Assembly: GCA_965248975.1 (NCBI GenBank) | Contig: CBDFKU010000017.1 | Location: 27,236-91,235, forward strand | From: Dehalococcoidia bacterium | GTDB taxonomy: Bacteria > Chloroflexota > Dehalococcoidia > Lucifugimonadales > JAGWBF01 | Direction of reading: 5' to 3' | Length of the DNA: 64,000 nt | Shown here: one piece after another, positions 2,987 through 45,095 of the stretch | Layout of the letters: every line of letters starts with the position of its first letter | How positions within the stretch are numbered: position 1 is the first letter of the stretch | The notes under the pieces: generated by a model | The model's database searches: none | What the model was told of the DNA's origin: nothing | The model's input: only the letters and a program-made list of their open reading frames with translations | Program-made: the position numbers and the translations under genes

Positions 2987-4006
2987 TCAGCGCAATTGGA
3001 CAGTTCTGGGTCCGAGAGATTGGGGAGAAGAAGCTCCTGGTTTGAGGGTTTCTCTGACCTCCTGATTGTACCGCCTCCGCCGGTCAAAAGTCTCTCGCTG
3101 TACCTCCTTCCTCTGGGCTAGAATTGCCTCCAGACGGCCTTCCAGCACGTCAGCCGGAGTTACAACCCTCAGCGCCTGATGATATCTTCGGTAGTTGTAG
3201 AACTCGACGAAGTCCCGGATGGCCGCCTCCAGGTCTTCCACCACCTCGTATGGCACCTGGTTAATGTCGTCTTTCAGGGTTCGGTGATATCTCTCCAGCT
3301 TCCCGTTGGTCTGAGGGTGATAGGGTGCTGCCAGGACGTGGCGAATGCCCACCACCCGCATGTACTCGCGGAAGGCCCGCGATACATAACCTGAGCCATT
3401 ATCTGAGAGGAGCTTGGTCCGATCCTCCAGAGGTACATCAGTCATACCAGTAGAGTCAACAGCTTCCTGGACCACCTCTATGAGGGAGTCGGCCGTCATG
3501 TCCTGTTGCACCTTCCAGGCCAAGATGAACCGGGAGTAGTCGTCCATCACCGTCACGAGGTAGTAGTAGCCCCATCCCACTACACGGAAGTAGGAGGCAT
3601 CGGTGGCCCACAGATGGTGGGGCCCTGTGGTCTTGTGCTGGTACTCTTTGCCCGCTGCCAACTGGTATTCGATCCGTTTCACCAGACCCTCCCGTCTCAG
3701 GATACGATAGACTGTGGAGGCGGAGACCGATAGGCCTCTGTGGTCGGTGAGCCAAGCTGCCAACTGCCGGCTTCGCCAGGTCGGCATCTCACGGGCTGCC
3801 GCCAGCACTACTGCCTCCTCTTCTGGATGCAGGCGATTCCAGGGCCTCTCAGTTCCTTCCGTACCCTCCCAACTACCCTGCCGGTGCCTCCACCTCCACC
3901 AATAATACGTGCTCCTGGAAATGCCAAGCTCCCTGAGTCGCCTGTTCTTCCCTCTACCATGTCGCTCCACCTCAGCCACGACCTTCGATTGCTCCACTAC
4001 GCTCAT
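2987..4006 (-). CDS. IS3-family transposase OrfB (DDE/integrase core)
   Basis: HLWATDASYF..YYLVTVMDDYSR..LLSDNGSGYVS..PYHPQTNGKLERYH is a typical rve core. The start ATG overlaps the orfA stop (ATGA). Confidence 0.85.
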   Translation of the reverse strand: MSVVEQSKVVAEVERHGRGKNRRLRELGISRSTYYWWRWRHRQGSWEGTEGTERPWNRLHPEEEAVVLAAAREMPTWRSRQLAAWLTDHRGLSVSASTVYRILRREGLVKRIEYQLAAGKEYQHKTTGPHHLWATDASYFRVVGWGYYYLVTVMDDYSRFILAWKVQQDMTADSLIEVVQEAVDSTGMTDVPLEDRTKLLSDNGSGYVSRAFREYMRVVGIRHVLAAPYHPQTNGKLERYHRTLKDDINQVPYEVVEDLEAAIRDFVEFYNYRRYHQALRVVTPADVLEGRLEAILAQRKEVQRETFDRRRRYNQEVRETLKPGASSPQSLGPRTVQLR

Positions 4007-15513: not shown

Positions 15514-17872
<2,359 letters not shown>

Positions 17873-17875
17873 CTT

Positions 17876-18790
17876 TCAAGACAGTTGCTTTCTGCGTTGT
17901 AGGATCTCTTGCCGTCTTCCCTTGAGCACGTCAGATGGTGTCACGTTGGCCAGGGCCTTGTGATAGCGCCGGTAGTTGTAGTAGCTGACGAACGCCGCGA
18001 TAGCCGCATCGAGGTCAGAGGGCAACTCATAGGGCACCTGGTTTACGTCCCGTTTGATGCTCTGGTGGTAGCGCTCCAGCTTCCCGTTGGTCTGAGGGTG
18101 GAAAGGGGTTGCCAGGATGTGCTTGATGCCAACCATACCCAGGTAGTCCCTGAATGCCCTCGAGACATAGCCCGGGCCGTTGTCACTCAGCAGCCTAGTG
18201 CGGTCTGTGACTGGAACTTGATCCATGCCGGTCCTGTCCACAGCATCCTGGACCACCTCGATGAAGGAGTCGGCCGTCATGTCTTCCTGGAGCCTGTGAG
18301 CCAGGATGAAGCGGGAGTAGTCGTCCATCACGGTCACCAGGTAGTAGTAGCCCCAACCTACTACCCTGAAGTAGGAGGCGTCGGTGGCCCACATCTGGTG
18401 AGGGCCTGTGGTCTTGCGGTGGTACTCCTTACCCGCGGCCAGCTTCATCTCAGGCCTCTTCACCAGACCCTCCCTGCTCAGGATACGGTAGACACTCGAC
18501 TCTGAGACACTGAAGCCCTGGTTGTCGGTGATCCACGCGGCCAGCTGACGGCAGCTCAGCTCCGGCATCTCTCTGGCTGCTGCGAGAACTGAGCGTTCTT
18601 CCCGAATGCTGAGACGGTTCCACGGGGGCTTGCCGCCTCCTGCATGGTCCTCAAGTCCTTGTTGGTCCTGGCGTCTGAGCCACCGGTAGTAGGTGCTCTT
18701 AGGGATACCCAACTCGCTGAGGGCCTTTCGTTTAGGGAGGGGAGACGAGGCTACTTCGGTAAGTACTTCTGCCTTCTCCACGGCGCTCAT
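17876..18790 (-). pseudogene. IS3 copy 2 orfB, 3'-truncated by the IS110 insertion
   Basis: The DDE core is intact (HQMWATDASYF..VMDDYSR..LLSDNGPGYVS..PFHPQTNGKLERYH). The last ~30 codons are displaced to 16628-16714. Confidence 0.75.
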
Positions 18791-29500: not shown

Positions 29501-30457
29501 AACCACGAGATTATGGCCGAGATCCAGAAGAGGGGCTACCCCATCTTCAGTGTGGACTCTCTGCCCCAGGACGAAGACATCCTGGAGCGATTGTTCGGCG
29601 AAGAGGTCAGGGCCGGCATCATCATCCACCCCATGGATATCGCCGACGTCTGGAAGAACAGCTACAGCGAGAACTCCAGCAAGAAGGTGTGGGGCGCCAA
29701 GTACGTGGCCAGGCACCCCAACCTGGTGGCCATCGACCTGTCCAGCTTCAAGTGCGGCCACGACGCTCCCATATACAACACGGTGGAGAACATCATCGAA
29801 GCGTCGGGCACACCCTACTTCACCTTCCACGACATCGACGAGAACAAGCCCACCGGCTCCATCAAGATCAGGGTGGAGACCATCGACTACTTCCTGGCTC
29901 GCTACCAGGAGCACCTGCAGCGCAAGGTGAGCTCCGAGGGCGAGCTCCAGCAAATGGTGGGGGCCTACAAGGCCCACCTGGAGCGCACCAGTACCAAGGC
30001 CGCCGCCAAGCTTGGCTTGAACGTAGCCGAAGGGCTCGAGACCGCGGGCCGCATCGGGATCAGCGGCAACGACTCCAGGCTCTCCGCCAACGGGCACGAG
30101 CATGAGTTGGACGAGGACGGGATACCCCATCACGGCAGCGATGCCTGGGTCCCGATCTCCCTGAACCTGGGCAATGGCGACGGGGAAGCCAGTCGCTCGG
30201 TGGTGGACTCCAACACCTACGACCAGATACGGGCGGAGAATATCGCCAACGACGATCCCGAAGACGAGCTGGGCAGCGGGTCCGCCAGCTGCAACCTGCC
30301 CGGACAGGACTACCCCAAGAAGGCCTATGAGCAGCTCAAGCAGTTCAAGGGCCACGCCGACGATGAGGAAGAAGATGAGCACGGCAGCAAGATGATCACC
30401 CTCATCGATATAAAGCTCCCGGAGAAAAAGGTCGAAGAGCCCGTGGAGGCAGACTAA
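26507..30457 (+). CDS. Giant BadF/BadG/BcrA/BcrD(HgdC)-type double ATPase ('CoA-substrate-specific enzyme activase'-like) with dehydratase-like domains and an acidic tail
   Basis: It has two actin-fold ATPase modules (LLVGLDVGSTTVKAVV.. and AFMGIDGGSTSTKAVL..) with the bridging-cluster motifs (NDKCAGGTGAVID and NTQCSAGNGYFLQ). 1316 aa in total. Confidence 0.7.
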   Translation: MVDVLHSTNGLLTQGADSGQAKAYDSLLVGLDVGSTTVKAVVMDPDTDEILWKDYERHQTKQPEMVNEFLQRITEAFPIPDDKFRVFITGSGGSMLKDRIGAKFVQEVNAVSLAVEHLYPEAGSVVELGGQDAKIIIWFSDPGSGTKRKVPSMNDKCAGGTGAVIDKINAKVMLTSEQLQALPYYDTKLHPVAGKCGVFAETDINGLQKNGVPANELMASLFEAIVQQNLSVLTRGNTLRPTVLLLGGPNTFIPAMRDCWKSNIPKIWAERNFPLPEGVDPADLVIVPENAQYYAAIGSVLYGKSEDPDVGVYKGSKELEAFIEVGRTQMRESSGDVGLCRTPEELEEFKKLFAKTPWEPAKFSEGDVVEAFMGIDGGSTSTKAVLMNKEGELLATAYQLSKGNPLEDTQDILADLREYVENQGATLDVKGVGTTGYAKDMLKESLGADVGIVETVAHTKSALHYYDDADVIVDVGGQDIKVIVLKDGKVKDFKLNTQCSAGNGYFLQSTAAKFGYSVAEFADVAFDAERLPVFGYGCAVFMETDIVNFQQLGWEKREIMAGLAKVLPKNIWLYVVAEPNLGKFGTTFVLQGGTQHNLAAVKSQYDFIKSKVPNATIRVHQFTGESGAIGAALEAIRVVSERDSSFIGLKAAESLEFTATRDESTRCSFCKNKCLRTYIDTTSDTGETNRFIIATCEKGTVEKMEDMKVIKARLDEIRKANPNFVEKASTEAFRSFSPPKVSTMLEEEEEGAEQPAKGKGLLSMFRKEKVEAVVAKASPEVRELRANIKIAMPRVLNMYTVSPFFSAYFEALGVSFRHITYSDYTDPLMWYKGSRRGSIDQCFPSKVAIAHIHNLIFDQKVKPDVIFFPIIQKLKTELVNAVDSSACPTVSITPEVCKAAFTKEGDSFAENDIQYLAPSFDMSLWPLFEIEMYDCFKDLLKVTEEENREAIETALKVWRKYFEVSLRAEARKVLDGLEEEGKVGVVMLGRPYHNDPGLNHEIMAEIQKRGYPIFSVDSLPQDEDILERLFGEEVRAGIIIHPMDIADVWKNSYSENSSKKVWGAKYVARHPNLVAIDLSSFKCGHDAPIYNTVENIIEASGTPYFTFHDIDENKPTGSIKIRVETIDYFLARYQEHLQRKVSSEGELQQMVGAYKAHLERTSTKAAAKLGLNVAEGLETAGRIGISGNDSRLSANGHEHELDEDGIPHHGSDAWVPISLNLGNGDGEASRSVVDSNTYDQIRAENIANDDPEDELGSGSASCNLPGQDYPKKAYEQLKQFKGHADDEEEDEHGSKMITLIDIKLPEKKVEEPVEAD

Positions 30458-36000: not shown

Positions 36001-37133
36001 CTAGTACTCAGTCAACCTGTGATTTGAAGGATATAGCCGATGGAGTTTCGCCCTAGCATCTTGGGTGTTGAAGCGCCAATGGATAGAGGCTCGGGCGGCG
36101 TTTCGCTCCCCCTCCAGGGCCTGAATTTCTCGGCGGAGGGCAGCCTCATCGGGGACACGCCTCCTCAGGCAAGATCGGGCCAGGACGCTGAACTCGATCT
36201 CCGCCATGTTGAGCCAACTGCCGTGTTTGGGGGTGTGGTGGAACTCCAGCCGCTTTACGATACGCCGGGCCTCAGGGGCAGGAAAGGCCTCGTACAGGGA
36301 AGCCGGGCGATGAGTGTTCAGGTTATCCAGAACAACTCGCACCACCGGGGCCTCCGGGTAGGCCTCATCCACCAACCAACGCATCTGACGGGCGAAGTCC
36401 TGCTGGGTCCGCCGCTGGGTGATGGCCACGTGTCTCCAGCCCTGCAGCGGCTCGCAGGTCAGGAACAGGTTCCGGGTGCCCTCCCTTCGGTACAAAGTAG
36501 TCCTGTCGCCGCGGCTGTCCCGGCTTCGCTGGGAGGGCGGCCGTGGCTCGCTCAACAGCTGAGTCGAGGTCTCGTCAAAGCAGACCACCGGCCGCCGGGG
36601 GTCATAGGGCTCGGCATACAGGTCCAGCACATCCTCCATGGCTGCCACAAAGTCGGCGCTCACCTTAGGAATACACCATTCCTTCTTCTGCCACGGCTTA
36701 AGAACGTTTTTTTGAGCCGCTTGCGGATGCCTTCATGGGACATGGAGGGCACCAACCCTAGCTCTACCACTTTCCCGGCCAACAGCCGCAGGGTCCAGTG
36801 GTCGTGGCCATCCGGCGCGGCGCTGCAGGCCAGGGCGATGAGGTGGGCCTCTCCCTTGTCGTCCAGCTTCCTCCGTGGCCTGGGCCTGGGCCTTTCCAGC
36901 AAAGCCCCCTTCATGCCCTCTTCAGCGAAACGCCGCTTGATGCGGAACACTGTGCCTACGGAGACGTCCAAGGCCTCAGACACCTTGGGAGCCTTCCAAC
37001 CCTCATCGCTCTTTAGTAGAATCCTCGCCCGGGTCATCACACGAGCCCGGCTCTTCCCACTTCGAATCAATTGCTGGAGTTGTTCCCGGTCTTCCTGGTC
37101 CAAGCGCACCCTATACTTTTCCCGTCGTCCCAT
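36001..37133 (-). pseudogene. IS630 transposase of copy B, with a 17-codon out-of-frame patch relative to copy A
   Basis: It has the same A7 tract (36707-36713). One C is deleted and GAG is replaced by TTTG. This turns ..PPLPAKPGQPRRQDYEYRREG.. into ..PPSQRSRDSRGDRTTLYRREG.. Confidence 0.6.
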
Positions 37134-37229
37134 CACTGCCACCCCTTGGGTAGATTCTGTCTTCCCAAAGGGTAGCAACTTTGAGTGATTTCTTAAATAA
37201 TTACCAACACCGAGTTGACTGAGTACTAG
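36001..37229 (-). mobile_element. IS630-family element, copy B, complete
   Basis: Perfect 16-bp terminal inverted repeats: CTAGTACTCAGTCAAC at 36001-36016 against GTTGACTGAGTACTAG at 37214-37229. Both termini contain TA at the ends, consistent with a TA target duplication. Confidence 0.85.
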
Positions 37230-37517: not shown

Positions 37518-38235
37518 GTGGACGGTCCCTTTCTGCACCTGATCAACTACGACGCCGACCCGGAGCACGAGCACGCCTTCGACGTGTGGTACAACACCCA
37601 CATCCTCAACGTCCTGAAATGCCCGGCTTATCAGTGGAGCTCGCGCTACGTCTCACTGGAAGGCAACTTCGAGGGGCCCTACATCAGGAACCTCACCATG
37701 TATATGATCGAGGACATGGCGGCCTTCGAGGTGGTGCTGGCGAAGGACGAGCGATCCCGTCATCCAGCGCTAAAAAAAAGACGAGGAAGACTTCAAGGCC
37801 CTCCAGGGGGTACGCTACGTTCATTCCAGCGTCTACGAGCAGGTCGGCGGAAGCCACCTGGGCAAACCGCTGCTGATGGCCAACCGTCCACTGCTGCTAG
37901 CCCTGAGCGACGCAAGTCCTGGTAAGGAAGCGGAGTGGGACCGCTGGTCCGAGGAGGTTGAGCTACCGGCTCTGATGCGCGATCCGTGGGTCGTGGCCGC
38001 GGGCCGCTTCCGGGCCGTCGAGGGGATCATCCCACCCTGGCTGACCCAGGGTCCCAGGACTCTGACCCTGTGCGAGCTCGCCGGGGAGGAGGCCGCCCGT
38101 GCCATGTTCGATCCGGGAAAGATGAGTCCGGCCGTCGGGGGCCTGGTAGCACCGGAGCAGGGGGCGGCTCGCAGAAATAGGTATTTCTACAAACCCATCT
38201 CCCAGCACTGGTCGTTCAAGAAAGATTCGCGCTAA
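37518..38235 (+). pseudogene. Two-domain protein of unknown function split by a frame change in an A8 tract (37772-37779)
   Basis: ORFs 37518-37925 and 37876-38235 join into one 238-aa frame if one A is removed (..RHPALKKDEEDFKALQGVRYVHSSVYEQVGG..). Both halves begin with a similar pattern (LINYDADPEHEHAFDVWYNTHIL and LLALSDASPGKEAEWDRWSEEVELP). Confidence 0.5.
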
Positions 38236-38331
38236 GGGATGGTAGCCGAGGCACGATACCGGGTGGCATAGTACCATGGGATTCTGTAGTGTTGCCATGA
38301 TCCAGAGTAGCAGCGGTCCCGAGGAAGGTGT

Positions 38332-39003
38332 CTAACTGTAGACCTTCCAGTCGGTCGGGATGGGGTTGGAGATCCACCCCTTGCTGAGGGCGATGGTCAC
38401 CGCGTGCGTCCTGTCGTTGACATCCAGCTTCCGAAGGATCGAGGTCACGTGGTTCTTTACCGTCTGATCGGTGATCTCCAGGTCCTGCGCTATCTCTTTG
38501 TTGCTCAAGCCCGCCGCGGCCAGCTCTAGGACCTCGACCTCGCGGCCGGATAGTGCCCTCCCGGTCTGCCCGGGCCTCTGGAGCCCGTACAGGAGGTTGG
38601 TGATGACGCTGGTGTCCACAGGAGTGCCGCCTTGGACGACCTGATGGATGGCGTTTACTATCTCTTCCCGGTTGCCCTTCTTGAGGAGGAACCCATCGGC
38701 TCCTGCCTCGATGGCGGCCCCAAGAAACTCTTCCCCGTACGAGGTCAGCATGATCACCTTCAGGTGGGGATAGGAGATCTTAATCCTTCTAAGGGTCTCA
38801 ATGCCGTCGATGCCCCCGAGCCGGGCGTCCAGGAGGATTACATCGGTAGCGACACCCTGTAGCAAAGACAGGGCATCCTCACCGCTGGATGCGTCCCCCA
38901 CGACGCAGAACTGCTCCTCCTGCTCCAGCATCCGCCGCAGGCCTTCGCACACTACGTAGTGGTCGTCTACCAGAAAAATGCGGATCTCTTTCTCTAGCAT
39001 CAT
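38332..39003 (-). CDS. NarL/FixJ(LuxR)-family response regulator
   Basis: Receiver domain (IRIFLVDDHYVV..DVILLDARLGGIDG..KVIMLTS) plus a LuxR HTH (LSGREVEVLELAAAGLSNKEIAQDLEITDQTVKNHVTSILRKL). Start ATG 39003 lies 1 nt after the kinase stop. Confidence 0.9.
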   Translation of the reverse strand: MMLEKEIRIFLVDDHYVVCEGLRRMLEQEEQFCVVGDASSGEDALSLLQGVATDVILLDARLGGIDGIETLRRIKISYPHLKVIMLTSYGEEFLGAAIEAGADGFLLKKGNREEIVNAIHQVVQGGTPVDTSVITNLLYGLQRPGQTGRALSGREVEVLELAAAGLSNKEIAQDLEITDQTVKNHVTSILRKLDVNDRTHAVTIALSKGWISNPIPTDWKVYS

Positions 39004-39004
39004 G

Positions 39005-40537
39005 TCACCTCGGCTCCAAGGTGAACTCTTTGTGGGATCCCCCGGTGTATCCCAGCTCCCCTTCGGCCGGACCGGGAGCATCCGAGCAGGGGATGAGGAG
39101 GGTTATCTGGGTGCCTATCTCTGGAGTGGACTGAATCCCCAGGGTGCCGCCGAGCATATACGCTCGCTCCTCCATCCCCGCCAGTCCGAGCTGACCGTTG
39201 GCGACCAGGCGGCTATCGTCGACCTCGAAACCAATCCCGTTGTCGATGACGGTCGCCCAGAGGGATTTGTTGTTGTACAGGCCGATATCCAGATTTACCT
39301 CGGTAGCCCTCGAGTGTTTCCGGGCGTTGGAGAGGGCCTCCTGGACTACCCGGTAGGTCGCCAACTCGGCGAGGGGAGCGAGACGGGGCACCTCTCCGTG
39401 TTCGCGGAATTGGGTGAGGATGCCGGTGTCCCGTTCGAAGGCGTCGGCGTATCTGGCGAGGGCTTTCACCAGGCCGACTCTCTCCAGCTCAGGTGGGTAC
39501 AGAGCCGCGGCGGTATGGCGCAACTCCTCCAGGCTCCGCCCCAGTGAGCTCTGGATATCCTCCAGTTCCTTACCGGCCCGGGCCGCCTCGCCCCGGTGGA
39601 AAAATCCGATACAGGTCTCAACGTGGTACAGGGCACTGGTGAGCCACTGGACAGGGGAGTCGTGGAGCTCCATGGCCAGCCTCTTGCGCTCATCCTCTCG
39701 GGCCGAAACCGATCTGTCCAGCAGCAGCTCTAGGCGACTCTGCTGAGAGGCCACGTTGGCGAAGAGGCCGGCGTTGGACACCCACATGGCCGTATGGCTG
39801 GCCGCCATCTGAAGCAGCTCCAGGTCTTCGCGGGAATAAGGCTCACTGCTGCGCTTGTGGGAGAGGGTGAGAACGCCCGCCAGGTCTTCCCTGTGCTTCA
39901 GCGGAATCAGTATGTCGATACGGGAGCTTTGAAGGTCTGCTAGCTCCTGGTGGGACATTGGTAGGAAGCCGGAGTCGCTCTCCAGGTCCTCACGCCTGAG
40001 GGATTCGTTGTGGAACCGCATCCAGGTCACGATCGGGCTGGTGGCTTCCAACTGAAGAGGGTCCGACGACTTGGAGGCCCTGTCCGACACTGAGGTGAAC
40101 CTGAGCCCGTTGCCTTGGGGGACCAGCAGACGAACATCTTCCGCGCCGGTGGCCAGGATAATGGACTGCTCGACGGTGAGCCCCAACATCTTCAGGTCAG
40201 TGATGTCCTTGGCGTACCGGGCGAAGTTTTTGACAGCACGAAGGTAATCGTAGCGGGTCCGCAGAAGCCAAGAGTCTACGAGCTTCTGGGTACCGTCTCT
40301 AACCGGCTTGGCCAGGGCCACTACTGCGATCACCGCAACCAGTGTCGCGGGCCAAGAGAAACTGAAGGGGCCCTTGAGAAGGACGGCGTTGAGGGAGACG
40401 AAAAGCGAAAGATAGACGCCCATCAAGGCAACTATCGTCCCTCCCCACACCAAGCCCTTCGCCATGGCCACTCTGACATCGAGGAGGCGAGGTCTTACGA
40501 TCATCGGGTCCTCCAGGTGTCTCGTCCAGATCAGCAC
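39005..40537 (-). CDS. Membrane sensor histidine kinase with a GAF-like domain, HisKA_3 type
   Basis: N-terminal hydrophobic helices, a central GAF-like region, the H-box ERKRLAMELHDSPVQ, and the ATPase motifs EALSNARKH and DNGIGF. The start may be internal. Confidence 0.85.
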   Translation of the reverse strand: MLIWTRHLEDPMIVRPRLLDVRVAMAKGLVWGGTIVALMGVYLSLFVSLNAVLLKGPFSFSWPATLVAVIAVVALAKPVRDGTQKLVDSWLLRTRYDYLRAVKNFARYAKDITDLKMLGLTVEQSIILATGAEDVRLLVPQGNGLRFTSVSDRASKSSDPLQLEATSPIVTWMRFHNESLRREDLESDSGFLPMSHQELADLQSSRIDILIPLKHREDLAGVLTLSHKRSSEPYSREDLELLQMAASHTAMWVSNAGLFANVASQQSRLELLLDRSVSAREDERKRLAMELHDSPVQWLTSALYHVETCIGFFHRGEAARAGKELEDIQSSLGRSLEELRHTAAALYPPELERVGLVKALARYADAFERDTGILTQFREHGEVPRLAPLAELATYRVVQEALSNARKHSRATEVNLDIGLYNNKSLWATVIDNGIGFEVDDSRLVANGQLGLAGMEERAYMLGGTLGIQSTPEIGTQITLLIPCSDAPGPAEGELGYTGGSHKEFTLEPR

Positions 40538-40699
40538 AATGCGGTCTGGATGATATCACGAGTCAGCAGATTTTTCAAGTCTGATATCGACGTAAACGTT
40601 CACGCCCTAACGTGCTTGGCGTCGATAACAGTAAAAATCTAAGACATTTCTTATATTTTTCAAAAAGTGCCGTCGGGTTGCCCATGCTTTGACACCCAC

Positions 40700-40766
40700 A
40701 TTTTGGAGAGGTGCCCTCAGGACCTGCATCCAGCAAAAGTCCTAATTCGATATGGGCCAAAAGTAC
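40700..40766 (-). promoter_or_regulatory. Copy A of the shared 44-nt module plus a -10-like element, facing the kinase/regulator operon
   Basis: The reverse complement of 40723-40766 is GTACTTTTGGCCCATATCGAATTAGGACTTTTGCTGGATGCAGG. CAAAAT lies 18 nt downstream (reverse strand, 40700-40705). Confidence 0.4.
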
Positions 40767-41126
40767 TATTCCCGGGGCTCTGCCGTAGCTGGCGAAGAGT
40801 GTCGGAAAACCCTCGTGGCCTGGTACATCCGGCCCAATCGGGTAACGGATTCTACCGGCCGCCCGGCCCGTGCTCCCGGATCTTGCGCGAGTATACCATC
40901 AGCGAAACCGCATTCTTCCTGTATGGTCATCCGGACCGATCCCCGCAGCCATTCCTTAAATCGAAATGCCGAGAAGATGCCGGAGACGCCCAGACGATGG
41001 CGGTCACCGATATATCACATCTAAATCACATGGCGAAGAACTCCCCTCGAAGAGTGTGCTTGTAGACGTTCCAGAGAGCAATCGGGAGCCGTTAGACCGA
41101 CCTCGTCGCTCACGACTCTGGCCGTG

Positions 41127-41192
41127 GTACTTTTGGACTAATCAATATTGGGACTTTAGCATGATGTCAGCGGTTGGTTGCGCCTCTATAAT
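41127..41192 (+). promoter_or_regulatory. Copy C of the shared module plus TATAAT, upstream of the ftsZ-like gene
   Basis: GTACTTTTGGACTAATCAATATTGGGACTTTAGCATGATGTCAG (41127-41170). ATGTCA, 17 nt, then TATAAT (41187-41192). Confidence 0.45.
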
Positions 41193-41281
41193 TTTGCCTG
41201 ATCACCAGAGTTGGTCGCGGCGTCCTGATTCCCACCATTATTGTTCATTTCGTCAGGGAATCGGCACCAGGGAGCGGGGCG

Positions 41282-42304
41282 ATGGCTGAGGCGAAAGAAG
41301 TCCGTGACGATATGAACGTAGCCAATGGAGATCGGAGCTGGCATATTGGCCAGCCCCCCTTGCTGGTTCCTTGCCGCCGGGCGTTGACCAAAATCAAGGT
41401 GGTCGGCGTCGGTGACGGAGGGTGTACCTGTGTCGCGCTCACGTCCGAGTACGATTTGCCCGGGGTCCAGTACGCCCTGGTCAACACTCGCGTCGATCTC
41501 CAGCGTGGGTTCGTCAATGTTCCGGAGGTTGTCCAGATCGGGCAACGAGTAGCCAGCGGTTTCGGAGCCGCCCGCTACTCCCGAGTGACCGAGCTGACCA
41601 TCGAGGACTCGGACGCCCAGCTCAGGAGCGTGCTGGAGGACGCCGAGCTGGTGCTGGTTACCACCGGTCTGGGCGGAGCAACCGGGACCAGGGCGGCGCC
41701 ATACGTGGCAGCCCTCGCCAGAGAGATGGGGGCCTTTGTCCTGGGGGTTGTCACCACTCCCTTCAGCTTCGAAGGCAGTCGCAGGATCGGGGAAGCCGTG
41801 GCCGGCCTGGCCCAACTGCGATCCTGTGTGGACAATGTCATCGTGATTCACAGCGATCGCCTGCTTCGCTTCATCAATCGCGACGCCGAAATAGCGGACG
41901 CCTTCGACAAGGCCAACGAAGTTGTGAGTCAAGGATTGCTGAGTATATCCGGGTTGCTTAACGAGCCCGGAGAGCTGGGCGCGGACTTCGAGGATGTCCG
42001 CACCGTTCTGGGATATCCCGGAGGTATGCTTATGGCGGTCGGGCGCGGTAGGGGACAGTCGGGACTCGTGGAGGCGGCCCAGGAGGCTATAGCTTATCCA
42101 CTGCTGAACCTGTCGATGGCGGGGGCCCGGGGGATTATCCTCTTTATTAAAGGCGGCCAGGACCTGACTCCCGCCGCAGTTGACGCGGCCAGCGCCTTCA
42201 TAAGCAAGGCTTGTAAACATAACCCTCGCACCCTGTTTGGCATGTCTATCGACCGTGGCCTGGGCGATAGGGTACAGCTCACGTTGATCGCCACCGGATT
42301 GTAA
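41282..42304 (+). CDS. FtsZ-like paralogue with degenerate nucleotide-binding loops and no C-terminal tail
   Basis: Colinear with the downstream FtsZ over the whole globular core. GVGDGGCT replaces GVGGGGCN, NTR replaces NTD, GFGAARYSRVT replaces GWGAGGDAKIG, and GGATGTR replaces GGGTGTG. It ends at ..LIATGL. Confidence 0.75.
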   Translation: MAEAKEVRDDMNVANGDRSWHIGQPPLLVPCRRALTKIKVVGVGDGGCTCVALTSEYDLPGVQYALVNTRVDLQRGFVNVPEVVQIGQRVASGFGAARYSRVTELTIEDSDAQLRSVLEDAELVLVTTGLGGATGTRAAPYVAALAREMGAFVLGVVTTPFSFEGSRRIGEAVAGLAQLRSCVDNVIVIHSDRLLRFINRDAEIADAFDKANEVVSQGLLSISGLLNEPGELGADFEDVRTVLGYPGGMLMAVGRGRGQSGLVEAAQEAIAYPLLNLSMAGARGIILFIKGGQDLTPAAVDAASAFISKACKHNPRTLFGMSIDRGLGDRVQLTLIATGL

Positions 42305-42323
42305 GCCGATTTCGAAGGTCATA

Positions 42324-42390
42324 GTACTTTTGGTCTATCAGAAATTAGGACTTTTGCAGGATGTCAGGCACGATGCAGCGTCCCTAGAAT
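42324..42390 (+). promoter_or_regulatory. Copy B of the shared module plus TAGAAT, upstream of ftsZ
   Basis: GTACTTTTGGTCTATCAGAAATTAGGACTTTTGCAGGATGTCAG (42324-42367). ATGTCA, 18 nt, then TAGAAT (42385-42390). Confidence 0.45.
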
Positions 42391-42454
42391 GTTGGCACGG
42401 TTCCACAGAGCAGAGCGCTAAGGGTGGCGGGTACTCACCGAAAGGAGTAAGCCA

Positions 42455-43561
42455 ATGACTAGTACTAATGGAGACGGAAGAGGAAAAGTGGACGGCGCAG
42501 CGGTCCAGGAGGTGATTAACGAAAGCTACGAGCACCAGGCTCCGGCCCCGGCCCCGGAGCAGAGTCCTTGGGAGCGAGCACCTGCTCGCATCAAGGTGAT
42601 CGGAGTCGGCGGCGGTGGCTGTAACTGCGTCCGACGCATGGTGGACCACCACGTGCCGGGTGTTGAGTACGTCATGGTCAACACTGACGTCAAGTCCCTG
42701 CAGGCCGCCTCCCACGTAAGCGAGGTCGTGCAGATCGGACAGAAAGTGACCCGTGGCTGGGGCGCCGGCGGCGACGCCAAGATCGGTGAAAAGGCCGCCG
42801 AGGAGTCCGCAAGTCAGCTCAGGAATTCCCTGAAGAACGCCGAGTTGGTGTTCATAACGTCGGGCATGGGCGGCGGAACCGGAACGGGCGCCGCTCCCTA
42901 CGTGGCTCACCTGGCCAAAGAGATGGGCGCTCTGGTCGTGGGCGTGGTGACGACCCCCTTCAGCTTCGAGGGGAGCCGTCGCATAGGCGAGGCCATCGCG
43001 GGTGTCTCACGGCTTCGCCCTTTTGTTGACAACCTGATCGTGATCCACAATGATCGCCTGCTACAGTACGTTAGCCACGATGCCGAAATGATCGACGCCT
43101 TCAAGACGGCCGACGAAGTCGTCACCCAGGGCATCCTGAGCGTGTCGGAGCTGATCAACGTACCCGGCGAGATCAACGTGGACTTCGCCGATGTCCGCTC
43201 CATCATGCTCCATCCCGGCGGGGCTCTGATGGCGATCGGACGAGGCAACGGGAAGATGGGTGCGCTGGAAGCCGCCAGTCAGGCGATAGCCAACCCGCTG
43301 CTGAACCTGTCGATCAAGGGCGCCGAGGGTGTACTGTTCTCGGTCCAGGGCGGACGAGAGTTGACCCTGGGTGGGGTGAACGCCGCCGGAGAGATGATCT
43401 CCAAGTCCGTCAAGAAGGACGCCTCGATCTTCTTCGGCATGTCGATCCAGGAGGACCTGGAAGACTCGGTGAAGCTCACCATGATCGCCACGGGGCTCAA
43501 GGACAAGGATTTCATGGGAGCCATGTCCGGCAAAGTGAAGGGCTTCCTGGGCAAGAGATAG
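42455..43561 (+). CDS. ftsZ: Cell division GTPase FtsZ
   Basis: IKVIGVGGGGCNCV, NTD, GAGGDAKIG, the tubulin signature GGGTGTGAAP, PFSFEG and the T7 loop NVDFADV are all present. The tail is short and ends in GFLGKR. Confidence 0.95.
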   Translation: MTSTNGDGRGKVDGAAVQEVINESYEHQAPAPAPEQSPWERAPARIKVIGVGGGGCNCVRRMVDHHVPGVEYVMVNTDVKSLQAASHVSEVVQIGQKVTRGWGAGGDAKIGEKAAEESASQLRNSLKNAELVFITSGMGGGTGTGAAPYVAHLAKEMGALVVGVVTTPFSFEGSRRIGEAIAGVSRLRPFVDNLIVIHNDRLLQYVSHDAEMIDAFKTADEVVTQGILSVSELINVPGEINVDFADVRSIMLHPGGALMAIGRGNGKMGALEAASQAIANPLLNLSIKGAEGVLFSVQGGRELTLGGVNAAGEMISKSVKKDASIFFGMSIQEDLEDSVKLTMIATGLKDKDFMGAMSGKVKGFLGKR

Positions 43562-43568
43562 AGGAATA

Positions 43569-43625
43569 GGAAGGGGCACTCCCGCGCGGCTACGAGCCGC
43601 CAAGGATGCCCCTTCTTCTTTTCGC
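43569..43625 (+). terminator. Terminator hairpin after ftsZ
   Basis: GGAAGGGGCA ... TGCCCCTTC followed by TTCTTTTC. Confidence 0.5.
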
Positions 43626-43632
43626 ATGGCAC

Positions 43633-43671
43633 GAAGGGCCCGTGAACTCACGGGCCCTTCCCCTTTATTTT
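43633..43671 (+). terminator. Second rho-independent terminator
   Basis: GAAGGGCCCGTG(AACT)CACGGGCCCTTC followed by CCCTTTATTTT. Confidence 0.65.
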
Positions 43672-43786
43672 GGCACTACAGTCAGGGTCTACTTTGGTCG
43701 AACTGGATTACATACGGTCCCGGGGATTATAATTTACCCAGGGACGGCAAGAGCAGATATCATTCAGCAAGAAGAGAGCTGCTGAC

Positions 43787-43945
43787 ATGGCCAGGGTCAA
43801 CTGGTACGAAGAGCATCCTCCGGCCTGTACTTGCGCTAGCTGCGAGGAAAAGAAGCTTATCCGACGACAGCACGGCAAGGTCGGTCGAAACGCGAAGTGT
43901 CCCTGCGGCAGTGGCAAGAAGTTCAAGAAATGCCACGGGCAGTGA
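43787..43945 (+). CDS. 52-aa SEC-C motif (SecA C-terminal-type zinc-binding) mini-protein
   Basis: [52 protein letters not shown]. It is below the ORF-track size cut-off. [14 protein letters not shown] is the SEC-C signature. Confidence 0.55.
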
Positions 43946-44099
43946 ACGGATCGACCTCGGGACCCACGGGAAAATGAGGGAATAGGCCAGCCTCAGCCAA
44001 GCTCATCTATTATTAGAGCATCCCTCGGAAAACCCCAACCAGCAGCCCATACCCTGCTATAATGTCGGCGTCCCTGGATAGTTCGGAGGTGGTATAGCT

Positions 44100-45095
44100 A
44101 TGGTCACGGGCCGGATCCGTCAACCGATCGAGCGGAACATTGCCATGGAACTGGCGCGAGTAACGGAGTCGGCGGCTTTGTCGGCCGCCCGTTACATGGG
44201 TATGGGCGACAAAGAGCTGGTGGACCAGGCCGCAGTGGACGCCATGCGGTTCACGCTGGGCTCCATCGCGATGGACGGGATCGTGGTCATAGGCGAGGGC
44301 GAGAAGGACGAGGCCCCGATGCTCTACATAGGCGAGCGCATAGGTGACGGCTCGCCGCCGCAGGTGGACATCGCTGTAGATCCCATCGACGGCACAACCT
44401 TGCTGTCCAAGGGACTCCCGGGAGCAATCGCGGCCGTCGCACTCTCCGCCCGGGGAACCATGAACGTCCCCGGACAAATCGTCTACGTGAACAAGATCGC
44501 CGTGGGCAAGGAAGCCAAGGATGCCATCGACATCGATGCGCCGGTGGAGACCAACCTGAAAAACATCTCCAAGTCCATGGGGCGTAGGGTGGAGGAGATC
44601 ACGGTAGTGGTGCTGGACCGCCCTCGCCACGAGCAGCTCCTCGTCGATATCCGCGCCATCGGGGCCCGCGTCAAGCTCATCACCGACGGCGACGTGGCGG
44701 CCGGTATCCACGCTGCGCTACCAGACAGCGGCGTGGACGTGCTGATGGGCATCGGTGGCACTCCGGAGGGCGTGCTTACGGCGGCAGCTATCCGGTGCAC
44801 CGGCGGGGCCATCCAGTGTAAGGCCTGGCCTCGCAATGACGATGAGCGAGAGGCGGCCGTGCAGGCAGGGGTGGACCTGGAGAAGGTGTACGCTACTGAG
44901 GAGTTGGTGGGCGGCGAAGAGGTGTTCTTTGCCGCCACCGGCGCCAGCTCCGGCGACCTGCTGAGCGGTGTGAGGTTCTTCGCGGACGGCGCCCAGACCC
45001 ATTCCTTGGTGATGCGTTCGCGCTCCGGGACCCTCCGGTGGATCGACTCCCTGCACGACTTCTCGCGCCTGGACAAGATCCGCTACCAGGGCTGA
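44100..45095 (+). CDS. glpX: Class II fructose-1,6-bisphosphatase (GlpX type)
   Basis: ELARVTESAALSAARYMGMGDK..VDQAAVDAMR..GEGEKDEAPMLYIGE..VDIAVDPIDGTT.. Confidence 0.9.
   Translation: MVTGRIRQPIERNIAMELARVTESAALSAARYMGMGDKELVDQAAVDAMRFTLGSIAMDGIVVIGEGEKDEAPMLYIGERIGDGSPPQVDIAVDPIDGTTLLSKGLPGAIAAVALSARGTMNVPGQIVYVNKIAVGKEAKDAIDIDAPVETNLKNISKSMGRRVEEITVVVLDRPRHEQLLVDIRAIGARVKLITDGDVAAGIHAALPDSGVDVLMGIGGTPEGVLTAAAIRCTGGAIQCKAWPRNDDEREAAVQAGVDLEKVYATEELVGGEEVFFAATGASSGDLLSGVRFFADGAQTHSLVMRSRSGTLRWIDSLHDFSRLDKIRYQG

What the first reader, a model, noticed from the sequence alone, without database searches (positions are those of the whole stretch)
41282..43561. Tandem ftsZ genes: a canonical copy preceded by a tail-less paralogue with ruined GTP-binding loops but retained T7 aspartates
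The two proteins are colinear over the whole globular core. The upstream copy has substitutions in every nucleotide-contacting loop:
- T1: GVGGGGCN becomes GVGDGGCT
- T2: NTD becomes NTR
- T3: GWGAGGDAKIG becomes GFGAARYSRVT
- T4 (tubulin signature): GGGTGTG becomes GGATGTR

The T7 region is GADFEDV versus NVDFADV, so both aspartates survive. The paralogue also stops right after the core (..LIATGL) and has no linker or C-terminal peptide.

The combination suggests a subunit that cannot bind or hydrolyse its own GTP. It could still dock onto an FtsZ filament end and supply a T7 loop, acting as a capper or modulator.

No ftsA, ftsQ or other dcw-cluster genes flank the pair. The bona fide FtsZ has an unusually short tail ending in GFLGKR.
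Basis: partly seen in the sequence, partly recalled or inferred. Interest (0 to 1): 0.75.

Follow-up and report, generated by a model that had tools for sequence, protein, structure and literature searches.

The report
Conserved "dead" FtsZ paralogue beside FtsZ
An uncultured Dehalococcoidia bacterium keeps, right next to its normal cell-division gene ftsZ, an old, well-conserved copy that has lost its tail and most of its GTP-handling residues, and both genes plus a neighbouring two-component sensor system carry the same conserved promoter element, which points to a regulated, non-enzymatic partner of FtsZ that has not been described before.

Summary
ORF 41282-42304 (340 aa, "TL") and ORF 42455-43561 (368 aa, canonical FtsZ) are 56% identical and colinear. 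TL has degenerate T1-T4 loops and stops at ...LIATGL.

TL is not a decaying duplicate. It belongs to a monophyletic clade (99/100 bootstrap) of at least 19 full-length tail-less proteins in Chloroflexota. In all eight distinct TL loci examined it lies upstream of a canonical ftsZ. Its dN/dS is 0.13-0.15, against 0.09-0.12 for FtsZ.

Family-wide, T2, T3, T7 and the phosphate-binding glycines are relaxed, and a T1 Gly-to-Asp change is fixed (17/19). Both T7 aspartates survive in only 6/19, so "T7 donor" is not the conserved function.

New finding: a ~45-nt element (GTACTTTTG-N15-GGACTTTWG abutting a -35/-10) precedes TL, ftsZ and, inverted, an adjacent orthologous GAF-HisKA_3 kinase / REC-GerE regulator operon. 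It occurs nowhere else in the window and once in 241 million metagenome records, again in a TL|ftsZ spacer.

Best reading: a co-expressed, anchor-less pseudo-GTPase FtsZ subunit that modulates FtsZ assembly under two-component control. This is a new variant of a known kind, and biochemistry is needed to confirm it.

The parts
38332..39003 (-). Response regulator gene (REC + GerE/LuxR HTH). The listed ORF runs to 39081, but orthologues start at the Met at about 39003, which overlaps the kinase stop codon.
   Evidence: Pfam Response_reg 2e-27 and GerE 5e-20. It is NarL/MadR/MctR-like but below all NCBIfam equivalog cutoffs. Identity to the regulators in L019-L023 is 65-72%, with a near-invariant HTH.
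39005..40537 (-). Sensor histidine kinase with two N-terminal hydrophobic segments, GAF, HisKA_3 and HATPase_c.
   Evidence: Pfam. Hydrophobic windows lie at about residues 23-56 and 56-79, and identity to the kinases in L019-L023 is 50-69%. It occupies the same position and orientation in 5 of 7 related TL loci; L017 has IS elements there and the short L026 contig ends before it.
40700..40766 (-). Inverted copy of the operator pair (boxes 40758-40766 and 40734-40742), followed on the minus strand by a -35-like ATGCAG (40729-40724) and a -10-like CAAAAT (40705-40700). This is the putative autoregulated promoter of the kinase/regulator operon.
   Evidence: Motif search, inverted repeat I1, and the same inverted pair with a -10-like hexamer at matching spacing in L020, L022 and L023.
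41127..41159 (+). Operator pair in front of the tail-less gene: GTACTTTTG, then 15 nt, then GGACTTTAG.
   Evidence: Conserved in L019, L020, L021, L022 and L023, and partly in L017.
41164..41192 (+). Predicted sigma-70-type promoter of the tail-less gene: ATGTCA, 17 nt, TATAAT.
   Evidence: 10 of 12 matches. The -35 and -10 blocks are conserved in the intergenic alignment. A conserved AGGGAG Shine-Dalgarno sequence precedes the ATG.
41282..42304 (+). Tail-less, nucleotide-loop-degenerate FtsZ paralogue (TL), 340 aa.
   Evidence: The AF2 model has an intact FtsZ core (pLDDT 81.7, pTM 0.81). Foldseek top hits are all FtsZ.
42324..42356 (+). Operator pair in the TL|ftsZ spacer: GTACTTTTG, then 15 nt, then GGACTTTTG.
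   Evidence: The pair sits 99-137 bp before the ftsZ start in L019, L020, L022 and L023. In L019 it follows the inserted gene and lies directly before ftsZ. L021 and L017 carry near-matches with one or two mismatches. The pair is also present in L026.
42361..42390 (+). Predicted promoter of canonical ftsZ: ATGTCA, 18 nt, TAGAAT.
   Evidence: The matching hexamers are conserved in the related loci.
42455..43561 (+). Canonical FtsZ, 368 aa, with all GTP-binding and T7 motifs intact and a 20-residue tail.
   Evidence: TIGR00065 365.5 bits, above the 295.2 cutoff. Motifs. A 20-residue tail is the most common length among 92 relatives.
43633..43660 (+). Strong intrinsic-terminator-like hairpin after ftsZ (12-bp stem with 9 G-C pairs, then a T-rich tail). 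Between TL and ftsZ the scan found only one weak 5-bp candidate, inside the TL coding sequence at 42129-42142.

Best explanation
Proposed function. The upstream gene encodes a folded FtsZ-core protein that has left the GTPase cycle (a pseudo-GTPase) and has lost the linker and C-terminal peptide that tie FtsZ to its membrane anchors. I propose that it acts by binding FtsZ subunits or filaments directly. It could act as a chain-terminating cap, a non-anchoring co-polymer spacer, or a monomer sequestrator, and so tune filament length, turnover or membrane-tether valence.

Proposed regulation. It is made together with FtsZ. Each gene has its own copy of one promoter plus a tandem-box operator. 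A third, inverted copy precedes the adjacent GAF-HisKA_3 kinase / REC-GerE regulator operon. The simplest reading is that the phosphorylated regulator binds the boxes just upstream of the weak -35 sites and activates all three promoters, including its own.

What is shown:
- the gene pair and the degenerate motifs;
- a single origin for the clade;
- purifying selection;
- conserved synteny;
- the conserved and highly specific operator;
- an intact predicted fold.

What is inferred:
- loss of GTP binding;
- physical interaction with FtsZ;
- which filament end or face is involved;
- that the regulator is the protein that binds the operator, and that it activates.
For: 1. Maintained, not decaying. 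Tail-less proteins form one clade with 99/100 NJ bootstrap, nested in Chloroflexota FtsZ. All eight TL ORFs retrieved with DNA are intact and stop at the same position. In the three unsaturated genome pairs dN/dS is 0.125-0.153, against 0.088-0.119 for FtsZ. TL nonsynonymous change is 1.7-3.7 times faster than FtsZ in all 21 pairs.

2. Loss of the GTPase cycle across the clade (E. coli numbering):
- T1 G20 is Asp in 17/19.
- T2 D45 is kept in 6/19.
- T3 conservation is 0.37 versus 0.80.
- T4 G107 is Ala or Ser in 13/19, and G111 is Arg or Lys in 12/19.
- T6 N165 is Ser or Gly in 16/19.
- T7 conservation is 0.55 versus 0.97, and both aspartates are kept in 6/19 versus 91/92.

3. The fold and many surfaces are kept. 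T5 (TTPFSFEGSRR) is essentially invariant. F182, R214 and the P247-L248 equivalents are 19/19. The AF2 model has pLDDT 81.7, and apart from one short stretch (residues 71-80) only the N-terminal extension and the T3-loop region (about residues 90-110) are low-confidence. Foldseek hits are FtsZ with TM-scores up to 0.90.

4. There are no residues after ...ATGL in any of the 22 tail-less hits.

5. Linkage to FtsZ. TL is followed by a canonical ftsZ on the same strand in all eight distinct TL loci, including the window, while the outer flanks differ.

6. Co-regulation. GKACTTTWG occurs 6 times in 64 kb against 0.93 expected, and 0 of 100 shuffles reach 6. The hits form three pairs 24 bp apart at the three promoters. 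The same pairs are found in the related loci. About 30 positions are identical in 12 of 12 instances. The element is absent from the lone-ftsZ relative L025, which also lacks TL and the two-component system. It gives a single hit in 241 million metagenome records, again in a TL|ftsZ spacer. The kinase and regulator are orthologous across the loci.

7. Precedents. A. tumefaciens FtsZ1 is tail-less, cannot polymerise alone, and co-polymerises with the essential FtsZ (10.1101/412759). Plant ARC3 has an FtsZ-like domain that is probably not a GTPase and inhibits Z-ring assembly (PMC3494859; 10.1101/2024.01.08.574726).
Against: - No binding, polymerisation or nucleotide data exist. Everything about function is inferred from sequence.
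- Residues that contact the ribose and base (E138, R142, F182, and the H7 Asp in 18/19) are conserved. Some form of nucleotide or nucleoside binding cannot be excluded.
- Both longitudinal faces are partly degenerate. On the top face T3 is lost. On the bottom face T7 is lost and the L272 equivalent is Leu in only 8/19. Longitudinal docking onto FtsZ is therefore not guaranteed, and the end that would be capped cannot be named.
- The nearest relative (P0002, 91% identical) is recorded only as an N-terminally truncated 258-aa ORF, and its DNA could not be retrieved.
- The regulator-operator link rests on conserved adjacency alone.
- The trees are NJ only, and reliable dN/dS comes from three related genome pairs.
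- These genomes might hold a further ftsZ beside ftsA, mraZ and mraW, as reported for other Dehalococcoidia (PMC10608941). In that case the pair could be an accessory system.
Confidence: 0.5

Rival explanations
1. TL is still a working nucleotide-binding FtsZ, like the tail-less alphaproteobacterial paralogues. It would bind GTP or GDP through an altered pocket and polymerise or co-polymerise as an active subunit.
For: The base and ribose contact positions and most of the T4 core (GG-TGT) are conserved. The fold is intact. Tubulins tolerate a side chain (Gln) at the T1 position that is Asp here (my own knowledge of the GQCGNQ motif, not tested). Tail-less FtsZ1 and FtsZm are functional proteins.
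Against: T2 D45, the whole T3 loop, T4 G107 and G111, T6 N165 and T7 have all lost constraint across the clade, whereas they are 97-100% conserved in the partner FtsZ. TL scores 55 bits below the TIGR00065 cutoff.
Confidence: 0.15
2. TL has taken on a function that does not involve FtsZ filaments. For example, it could be a scaffold for another partner, or a signalling input to the adjacent kinase. The tandem position would then be only historical.
For: Both longitudinal interfaces are partly degenerate. There are clade-specific fixed changes: T1 Asp, L160F, M251L and M212I in partner-FtsZ numbering. TL is tightly linked to a GAF-domain kinase.
Against: The tandem arrangement and identical operator are kept in every locus, even though IS elements and gene insertions have reshuffled the surroundings. 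Co-expression with FtsZ is the simplest reason for that. No other conserved neighbour is present.
Confidence: 0.2
3. One reading: TL caps a filament end and donates a catalytic T7 loop, which triggers GTP hydrolysis in the terminal FtsZ subunit.
For: This window's copy keeps both T7 aspartates (GADFED), as do 5 other clade members. GTP hydrolysis requires the T7 loop of the neighbouring subunit (PMC7010359).
Against: 13 of 19 clade members have lost one or both aspartates, and the T7 asparagine is kept in only 4 of 19, including not in this copy. The L272-equivalent bottom-face residue is Pro in this copy. The trait is not under clade-wide selection.
Confidence: 0.1
4. TL is a decaying duplicate (a pseudogene in the making).
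For: The motifs are degenerate and the TIGR00065 score is below cutoff. The closest relative, P0002, is recorded as a truncated ORF.
Against: dN/dS is 0.125-0.153. The clade is monophyletic and internally as divergent as about 41-63% identity, yet all ORFs are intact with the same stop position. The promoter, operator and Shine-Dalgarno sequence are conserved. The predicted fold is confident.
Confidence: 0.02

Closest known systems
Tail-less FtsZ paralogues of Alphaproteobacteria (Agrobacterium tumefaciens FtsZ1, Rhizobium meliloti second FtsZ, Magnetospirillum gryphiswaldense truncated FtsZ)
   Same: A second FtsZ that is truncated right after the globular core sits alongside an essential full-length FtsZ. 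A. tumefaciens FtsZ1 cannot polymerise alone and depends on the main FtsZ for localisation and co-polymerisation (10.1101/412759).
   Different: A. tumefaciens FtsZ1 is reported to co-polymerise with unchanged GTP hydrolysis, which implies working nucleotide sites. Here the T1-T4 and T7 loops are degenerate across the clade. The origin is independent, because the TL clade nests inside Chloroflexota FtsZ. Here the two genes are in tandem and share an operator; I saw nothing comparable described in the passages I read.
ARC3 FtsZ-like domain (plant chloroplast division inhibitor)
   Same: An FtsZ-derived domain that is probably not a functional GTPase yet acts directly on FtsZ assembly (PMC3494859; 10.1101/2024.01.08.574726).
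   Different: ARC3 is a eukaryotic multidomain protein with a middle domain and MORN repeats, and it works within a Min-like positioning system. TL is a stand-alone bacterial FtsZ core. No homology beyond the shared FtsZ fold was tested.
Chloroplast FtsZ1/FtsZ2 and archaeal FtsZ1/FtsZ2 pairs
   Same: An old duplication has given two co-functioning FtsZs. In chloroplasts only one of the two keeps the C-terminal anchoring peptide, and the peptide-less one increases heteropolymer turnover (PMC3494859).
   Different: Both members of the chloroplast pair are active GTPases that can polymerise; I did not check this for the archaeal pair. TL has lost the conserved catalytic and phosphate-binding residues.
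Protein caps and inhibitors of FtsZ ends (SulA, MipZ) and engineered interface mutants (for example L178E)
   Same: They change FtsZ dynamics by occupying or disabling one longitudinal interface. MipZ and others act at the C-terminal (T7) plus end (PMC9897490). L178E blocks assembly (PMC7010359).
   Different: Those are unrelated folds or laboratory mutants. TL would be a naturally evolved, FtsZ-derived equivalent. No capping activity has been shown for TL.
NarL/LuxR-family two-component systems (HisKA_3 kinase with REC-GerE regulator) that autoregulate
   Same: The domain architecture matches. An operator copy in front of its own operon is the usual signature of autoregulation.
   Different: All named NCBIfam equivalogs (MadR/MadS, MctR/MctS, NarL/NarX) score below their cutoffs. 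An operator shared with ftsZ and a pseudo-FtsZ was not found in the literature searched.

Membership tests
FtsZ (NCBIfam TIGR00065 equivalog), upstream copy TL | Tubulin/FtsZ GTPase-domain fold plus the FtsZ C-terminal domain | tested here: met
   Pfam PF00091 9.6e-25 and PF12327 7.2e-17. PDB FtsZ hits down to 2e-63 over residues 26-339. AF2 pTM 0.81. Foldseek top 50 are all FtsZ.
FtsZ (NCBIfam TIGR00065 equivalog), upstream copy TL | Whole-protein score above the curated equivalog cutoff (295.2 bits) | tested here: not met
   239.9 bits.
FtsZ (NCBIfam TIGR00065 equivalog), upstream copy TL | Tubulin signature GGGTG(T/S)G in T4 and the glycine-rich T1 loop | tested here: not met
   GGATGTR and GVGDGGCT in the window. 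Across the clade G107 is Gly in 4/19, G111 is Gly in 2/19, and G20 is Asp in 17/19.
FtsZ (NCBIfam TIGR00065 equivalog), upstream copy TL | Catalytic T7 loop N-x-D-x-x-D | tested here: inconclusive
   The window copy has G-A-D-F-E-D: both Asp are kept and the Asn is lost. Across the clade both Asp are kept in 6/19, against 91/92 in FtsZ.
FtsZ (NCBIfam TIGR00065 equivalog), upstream copy TL | Disordered linker plus conserved C-terminal peptide for membrane anchors | tested here: not met
   There are 0 residues after ...ATGL in all 22 tail-less hits.
FtsZ (NCBIfam TIGR00065 equivalog), upstream copy TL | GTP binding, GTP-dependent polymerisation and GTPase activity | not testable with these tools
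   This needs purified protein.
FtsZ, downstream copy (42455-43561) | Equivalog score, all nucleotide-binding loops and T7 intact | tested here: met
   365.5 bits, above the 295.2 cutoff. GVGGGGCN, NTD, GWGAGG, GGGTGTG and NVDFADV are all present.
FtsZ, downstream copy (42455-43561) | dcw-cluster context (next to ftsA, ftsQ, or mraZ/mraW) | tested here: not met
   The neighbours are the two-component system, TL, glpX and a class I aldolase. None of the related loci has dcw genes either. Other Dehalococcoidia are reported to keep ftsZ beside ftsA, mraZ and mraW (PMC10608941).
Alphaproteobacterial tail-less FtsZ paralogues (FtsZ1/FtsZm type) | Truncation directly after the globular core | tested here: met
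Alphaproteobacterial tail-less FtsZ paralogues (FtsZ1/FtsZm type) | Common descent with those paralogues and retained GTPase motifs | tested here: not met
   The TL clade nests within Chloroflexota FtsZ with 99/100 support, and its motifs are degenerate. No alphaproteobacterial sequences were included in the tree.
NarL/LuxR-type two-component system | HisKA_3 + HATPase_c kinase paired with a REC + GerE regulator | tested here: met
   The gene ends overlap and the pair is orthologous across loci.
NarL/LuxR-type two-component system | The regulator binds the GKACTTTWG boxes and controls the three promoters | not testable with these tools
   Inferred from conserved adjacency and from the autoregulation-like inverted copy. 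EMSA or footprinting is needed.

The most novel reading that the evidence does not exclude
TL is a genetically encoded, nucleotide-free end-cap or chain terminator derived from FtsZ itself. The fixed T1 aspartate and the T4 arginine or lysine would occupy the phosphate site. Co-expressed at a set ratio with FtsZ from twin operator-controlled promoters, TL would set FtsZ filament length and turnover without a GTPase cycle of its own. A dedicated two-component system would then place the whole division module under environmental control in Dehalococcoidia that have moved ftsZ out of the dcw cluster. It would be a bacterial "pseudo-tubulin" analogous to pseudokinases.
Probability: 0.25. Interest if true: 0.8.

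Novelty: new variant of a known kind. Interest (0 to 1): 0.64.

Why it matters
FtsZ paralogues are known, and so are engineered interface-dead FtsZ mutants that poison filaments. A natural clade in which an FtsZ copy has given up both halves of the GTPase machinery, yet is kept under purifying selection beside its active partner, has not been described in the literature I could search.

If TL binds FtsZ, it would be a natural tool for studying filament capping, length control and treadmilling. It would also be an example of a pseudoenzyme evolving in the tubulin/FtsZ superfamily.

The shared operator in front of ftsZ, TL and the sensor operon is a directly testable case of two-component control of the core division gene. 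It occurs in an uncultured lineage related to groups reported to have lost the peptidoglycan and dcw genes (PMC10608941). The same T1 Gly-to-Asp change in apparently independent FtsZ duplicates (P0143, P0145) suggests a repeatable evolutionary route.

Tried and rejected
- **Genome scan.** It returned only distant FtsZs from Bacteroidota and Verrucomicrobiota, so no named genomes carrying TL were obtained.
- **Failed look-ups.** Exact-sequence look-ups failed for P0005, P0004, P0002 and P0009. The closest relative of the window copy could therefore not be examined at the DNA level.
- **Tree run.** The first tree run timed out and was redone with numpy distances.
- **Possible fusions.** The 744-840-aa hits with two FtsZ stretches (P0140-P0142) looked like possible TL-FtsZ fusions. 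Both halves have canonical motifs and they are not TL relatives, so they were rejected as Rosetta-stone evidence.
- **RNA element.** An RNA element in the long kinase|TL intergenic region was considered. There is no Rfam match at E <= 1 in 38000-45000. The conserved blocks are better explained as promoters and operators.
- **Open versus closed state.** The TL model fits closed (R-state) FtsZ structures better (TMt 0.86-0.90) than open (T-state) ones (0.76-0.77). The control model of the partner FtsZ was too poor to compare (pLDDT 58.9), so no conclusion is drawn.
- **Top versus bottom face.** I tried to decide which longitudinal face is better preserved. Both are partly degenerate, and I had no coordinates or published interface list to score them rigorously.
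- **Saturated comparisons.** dN/dS for most genome pairs is unusable because dS is above 1. Only the L020/L023/L026 comparisons are relied on.
- **Antisense ORF.** The 378-aa antisense ORF at 41186-42322 overlapping TL is treated as a high-GC artefact.


Full report
**1.

The window has two same-strand ORFs at exactly the stated coordinates: 41282..42304 (340 aa) and 42455..43561 (368 aa). They align without gaps over 315 residues at 56% identity, E = 5e-116. Both carry the Pfam Tubulin and FtsZ_C domains.

Against the curated ftsZ equivalog TIGR00065 (cutoff 295.2 bits), the downstream protein scores 365.5 bits and the upstream one 239.9 bits.

| Loop | Upstream copy | Downstream FtsZ |
|---|---|---|
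| T1 | GVGDGGCT | GVGGGGCN |
| T2 | NTR | NTD |
| T3 | GFGAARYSRVT | GWGAGGDAKIG |
| T4 | GGATGTR | GGGTGTG |
| T7 | GADFEDV | NVDFADV |

The upstream protein ends at ...LIATGL. The downstream one has a 20-residue tail ending in GFLGKR. I call the upstream protein TL (tail-less).

**2. Organism and surroundings**

The window is chromosomal and rich in IS elements. It holds alanyl-tRNA synthetase, trehalose-6-phosphate synthase, GlpX, a class I aldolase and a Ctp protease, plus several rve, Mutator, IS110 and IS630 transposases. The AlaRS is 74-76% identical to proteins named only as "Dehalococcoidia bacterium" MAGs. FtsZ relatives carry Chloroflexota, Dehalococcoidia or SAR202 names.

No division or cell-wall gene is among the 30 further ORFs scanned across the window, which include all nearest neighbours of the pair. 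This differs from Dehalococcoidales and SAR202, where ftsZ is reported to sit beside ftsA, mraZ and mraW (PMC10608941). I therefore cannot exclude a further ftsZ elsewhere in these genomes.

**3. TL is an old, conserved family and not a decaying copy**

Among the 120 best database hits, 22 proteins have no residues after the ...ATG[LV] end of the core. Twenty of them have a degenerate T1 and/or T4 loop, and the other two are an N-terminal fragment and a divergent member whose motifs the search pattern did not capture. Almost all tailed proteins have the canonical GVGGGGCN, GGGTGTG and NVDFADVR motifs.

In an NJ tree of 111 full-length proteins, the 19 tail-less ones form one clade with 99/100 bootstrap support, nested among Chloroflexota FtsZs.

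I retrieved DNA for seven further distinct TL loci: L017 (with L018, a second contig carrying the same protein), L019, L020, L021, L022, L023 and L026. In every one, TL is intact, stops at the same position, and is followed on the same strand by a canonical ftsZ. The gap is 140-240 bp, except in L019, where a metallo-beta-lactamase-fold gene is inserted between them. The outer flanks differ in every locus.

Most genome pairs are saturated at synonymous sites. The three that are not give these values:

| Gene | dN/dS in the three unsaturated pairs |
|---|---|
| TL | 0.144, 0.125, 0.153 |
| FtsZ | 0.088, 0.092, 0.119 |

TL changes 1.7-3.7 times faster than FtsZ at nonsynonymous sites in all 21 pairs. 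The "decaying duplicate" alternative is therefore rejected. An AlphaFold2 model built on the family alignment has pLDDT 81.7 and pTM 0.81, with confidence mostly 81-96 across the core. Apart from one short stretch (residues 71-80), only the N-terminal extension (1-31) and the T3-loop region (about residues 90-110) are low-confidence. Foldseek returns only FtsZ structures.

**4. What has been lost and what has been kept**

I compared column by column across 19 TL and 92 canonical proteins. E. coli numbering comes from the K-12 sequence.

| Site (E. coli numbering) | TL clade (n = 19) | Canonical FtsZ (n = 92) |
|---|---|---|
| T1 G20 | Asp in 17 | Gly in 87 (4 gaps) |
| T1 N24 | variable | Asn in 88 (4 gaps) |
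| T2 D45 | kept in 6 | kept in all 92 |
| T3 loop, mean conservation | 0.37 | 0.80 |
| T4 G107 | Ala or Ser in 13 | Gly in all 92 |
| T4 G111 | Arg or Lys in 12 | Gly in all 92 |
| T6 N165 | Ser or Gly in 16 | Asn in all 92 |
| T7 loop, mean conservation | 0.55 | 0.97 |
| T7 N207 | kept in 4 | kept in all 92 |
| T7 D209 / D212 | kept in 12 / 11; both in 6 | both in 91 |
| L272 equivalent (bottom face) | Leu in 8; Pro in the window copy | Leu in 91 |

By contrast, several regions are kept in TL. The T5 loop TTPFSFEGSRR is essentially invariant. F182, R214 and the P247-L248 equivalents are 19/19. The H7 aspartate that contacts guanine in S. aureus FtsZ is kept in 18/19, and the window copy is the exception. 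The L178 position stays hydrophobic (Ile or Val).

L178E is a known assembly-blocking mutation, and hydrolysis requires the T7 loop of the neighbouring subunit (PMC7010359). That L272E also blocks polymerisation is from my memory; the paper only lists the mutant.

The pattern is what one expects if the gamma-phosphate and catalytic centre no longer matter, both in TL's own pocket and in TL's T7 loop, while the fold and parts of the surfaces still do. The fixed T1 aspartate and the frequent T4 basic residue look like gained features rather than decay.

They are a property of this copy and five others, not of the family.

**5. A shared operator and a dedicated two-component system**

Upstream and divergent from TL lie two genes. 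One is a kinase with two hydrophobic segments plus GAF, HisKA_3 and HATPase_c domains (39005-40537, minus strand). The other is a REC-GerE regulator (38332 to about 39003, minus strand). The same pair, orthologous at 50-69% and 65-72% identity, is in the same position in L019, L020, L021, L022 and L023. In L017, IS elements occupy that position.

Aligning the long intergenic regions (about 640-920 bp) revealed blocks conserved far above background. The core 9-mer GKACTTTWG occurs six times in the 64-kb window, against 0.93 expected, and 0 of 100 shuffles reach six. All six hits are in this locus, as three pairs spaced 24 bp apart:

- 41127/41151 (+) abuts a predicted promoter ATGTCA-17-TATAAT in front of TL.
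- 42324/42348 (+) abuts ATGTCA-18-TAGAAT in front of ftsZ.
- 40758/40734 (-) faces the kinase operon, followed by -35- and -10-like hexamers.

The same pairs sit before TL and before ftsZ in the relatives, exact in most and with one or two mismatches in L017 and L021. In L019 the pair lies directly before ftsZ, after the inserted gene. The inverted pair is found in L020, L022 and L023. Twelve instances are identical at about 30 positions.T.GTACTTTTGG.CtA......ATT.GGACTTT.GCa.GATG.ca.

A related lone ftsZ locus (L025) has neither TL, nor the two-component system, nor the motif. A scan of 241 million metagenome records for the composite pattern found one match. It lies in the spacer between another TL (340 aa, GVGDGGCT...LIATGL) and its ftsZ.

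Between TL and ftsZ the terminator scan finds only one weak 5-bp candidate, inside the TL coding sequence at 42129-42142. A strong terminator follows ftsZ at 43633-43660. No Rfam family matches the region.

I infer that a DNA-binding protein, most simply the adjacent GerE-type regulator, binds tandem boxes just upstream of weak -35 elements. It would co-activate TL, ftsZ and its own operon. The binding protein and the sign of regulation are not shown.

**6. Mechanism**

Shown:
- TL is a folded, maintained FtsZ core with no tail.
- Its GTPase-cycle residues are degenerate.
- It is always next to a canonical FtsZ, and it has the same promoter and operator as that FtsZ.

Inferred:
- TL does not run a GTP cycle.
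- It cannot bind membrane anchors through a C-terminal peptide.
- It acts on FtsZ by direct association.

Identical operators argue for production together with FtsZ rather than as a conditional, SulA-like emergency inhibitor. That favours a stoichiometric modulator: a cap, a non-anchoring spacer or a buffer of free subunits.

I cannot name the filament end. If TL docked with its bottom face on the GTP-bearing face of a terminal FtsZ, most family members would form a non-hydrolysing interface. If it docked with its top face on the exposed T7 (plus) end (PMC9897490), its own degenerate bottom face would block further growth. Both faces are partly degenerate, so a function unrelated to filaments stays open.

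Confidence in the general "co-expressed non-catalytic FtsZ modulator" reading is 0.5.

**7. Comparison with what is known**

- **Alphaproteobacterial tail-less FtsZ paralogues** are the nearest described cases. A. tumefaciens FtsZ1 localises and polymerises only with the essential FtsZ. R. meliloti and M. gryphiswaldense have similar truncated copies (10.1101/412759). A. tumefaciens FtsZ1 co-polymerises with unchanged GTP hydrolysis, and these paralogues arose independently of TL.
- **Chloroplast FtsZ1/FtsZ2** show how a peptide-less partner can raise heteropolymer turnover (PMC3494859), but both are active GTPases.
- **Plant ARC3** is the one known FtsZ-derived domain that is probably not a GTPase and still regulates FtsZ assembly. 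It is a eukaryotic multidomain protein.
- **The broad survey of the FtsZ/tubulin family** mentions only that a few bacteria have a second ftsZ outside the dcw cluster. It notes CetZ-like sequences in Dehalococcoidia but does not describe this pair (PMC9871819). Full-text searches for FtsZ paralogues in Chloroflexi found nothing relevant.

I therefore rate this as a new variant of a known kind.

**8. Family size and a possible convergence**

An exhaustive profile search with the TL alignment against 1.84 billion cluster representatives found 26,047 FtsZ-family proteins. Among the top 150, only a handful are TL-like.

Two of them, P0143 and P0145, share the T1 Gly-to-Asp change and degenerate T3 and T7 loops, but they keep C-terminal tails. 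In an NJ tree they sit beside different canonical FtsZ groups and not in the TL clade. This hints that the same substitution has arisen more than once. NJ placement of long branches is weak evidence.

**9. Limits**

- No experiment supports any functional statement.
- The trees are distance-based, and reliable dN/dS rests on three related genome pairs.
- The closest relative of this window's TL (P0002, 91% identical) is recorded as a 258-aa N-terminally truncated ORF. Its DNA could not be fetched.
- The attempted control for the open or closed state of the model failed.
- Whether TL-bearing genomes have ftsA, sepF or another ftsZ is unknown.

Noticed in passing
P0143 and P0145 (one search hits; not in the window): Two other FtsZ paralogues carry the same T1 Gly-to-Asp change (GVGDGGCN) and degenerate T3 and T7 loops but keep C-terminal tails. 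NJ places them next to different canonical FtsZ groups rather than in the tail-less clade, which suggests the substitution arose convergently.
   Followed up: partly
P0114 (286 aa, contig of 83 kb): The N-terminal half is TL-like (GMGGSTGTR, GAFVV). The C-terminal half reads like the canonical partner (…NDRLLQYVHHDAEMIDAFKTADEVVTQGILSVSELINVPGEINVDFADVR) and then goes out of frame. It may be a recombinant between the tandem genes or an assembly chimera.
   Followed up: no
P0002: The nearest relative of the window's TL (91% identical) is recorded only as a 258-aa ORF starting at an internal Met, so it lacks T1 and T2. The DNA could not be retrieved, so truncation versus a gene-calling artefact is unresolved.
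   Followed up: partly
window 43502-43561 (FtsZ tail) and relatives: The canonical FtsZ has only 20 residues after the core, the most common length among 92 relatives. The tail has a basic-hydrophobic end (…GKVKGFLGKR; elsewhere …RxRSxVPGL or …GRVRSFLSRS) and no DIPxFLR-type peptide. The membrane anchor it uses is unknown.
   Followed up: partly
L019 7071-7841 and L017 9462-10313: A metallo-beta-lactamase-fold gene lies between TL and ftsZ in one relative and just downstream of ftsZ in another. The window has none in either position. A link to the module is possible but was not examined.
   Followed up: no
window 41127 / 42324 / 40766 and the same sites in L019-L023: In the window, L019, L020, L022 and L023 the distal box of the TL promoter begins GGTAC, whereas the ftsZ and kinase-operon promoters begin AGTAC (L017 is an exception, with AGTAC before TL). 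The promoter copies therefore diverged before these genomes split.
   Followed up: partly
window 40550-40663 (minus strand): Two further promoter-like sites (TTGAAA-17-TATCAT with TG, and TTGAAA-16-TAGATT) lie in a conserved A+T-rich block between the inverted operator and the kinase start. The kinase operon may have more than one promoter.
   Followed up: no
window 36001-37178 (minus strand); L021 4512-5486: An IS630-type transposase, split into HTH and DDE_3 ORFs, lies beyond the regulator in the window. A similar element is inserted between the kinase and TL in L021. Many other IS elements (rve at 2987-4006 and 17876-18790, Mutator at 4165-5409, IS110 at 15514-17872) make this an IS-rich region.
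   Followed up: no
window 141-1463 (+): This ORF has phage DAM-like methylase domain 1 and a phage GNAT-like domain (E = 7.6e-80 and 8.3e-40). It may be a prophage or defence-island remnant at the window edge.
   Followed up: no
window 26507-30457 (+): A very large (1316 aa) BcrAD/BadFG-type CoA-enzyme activase fused to DUF2229.
   Followed up: no
window 41186-42322 (minus strand): A 378-aa antisense ORF overlaps the whole TL gene. No evidence for it was sought. I regard it as a by-product of high G+C content.
   Followed up: no
AF2 model m6c17018f927d (TL): The model superposes better on closed, monomer-type FtsZ structures (TMt 0.86-0.90; for example 5MN5, 5MN6, 2VAM) than on open, filament-type ones (0.76-0.77; 3VOA, 5MN4). 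The control model of the partner FtsZ was too poor (pLDDT 58.9) to tell whether this is specific to TL.
   Followed up: partly
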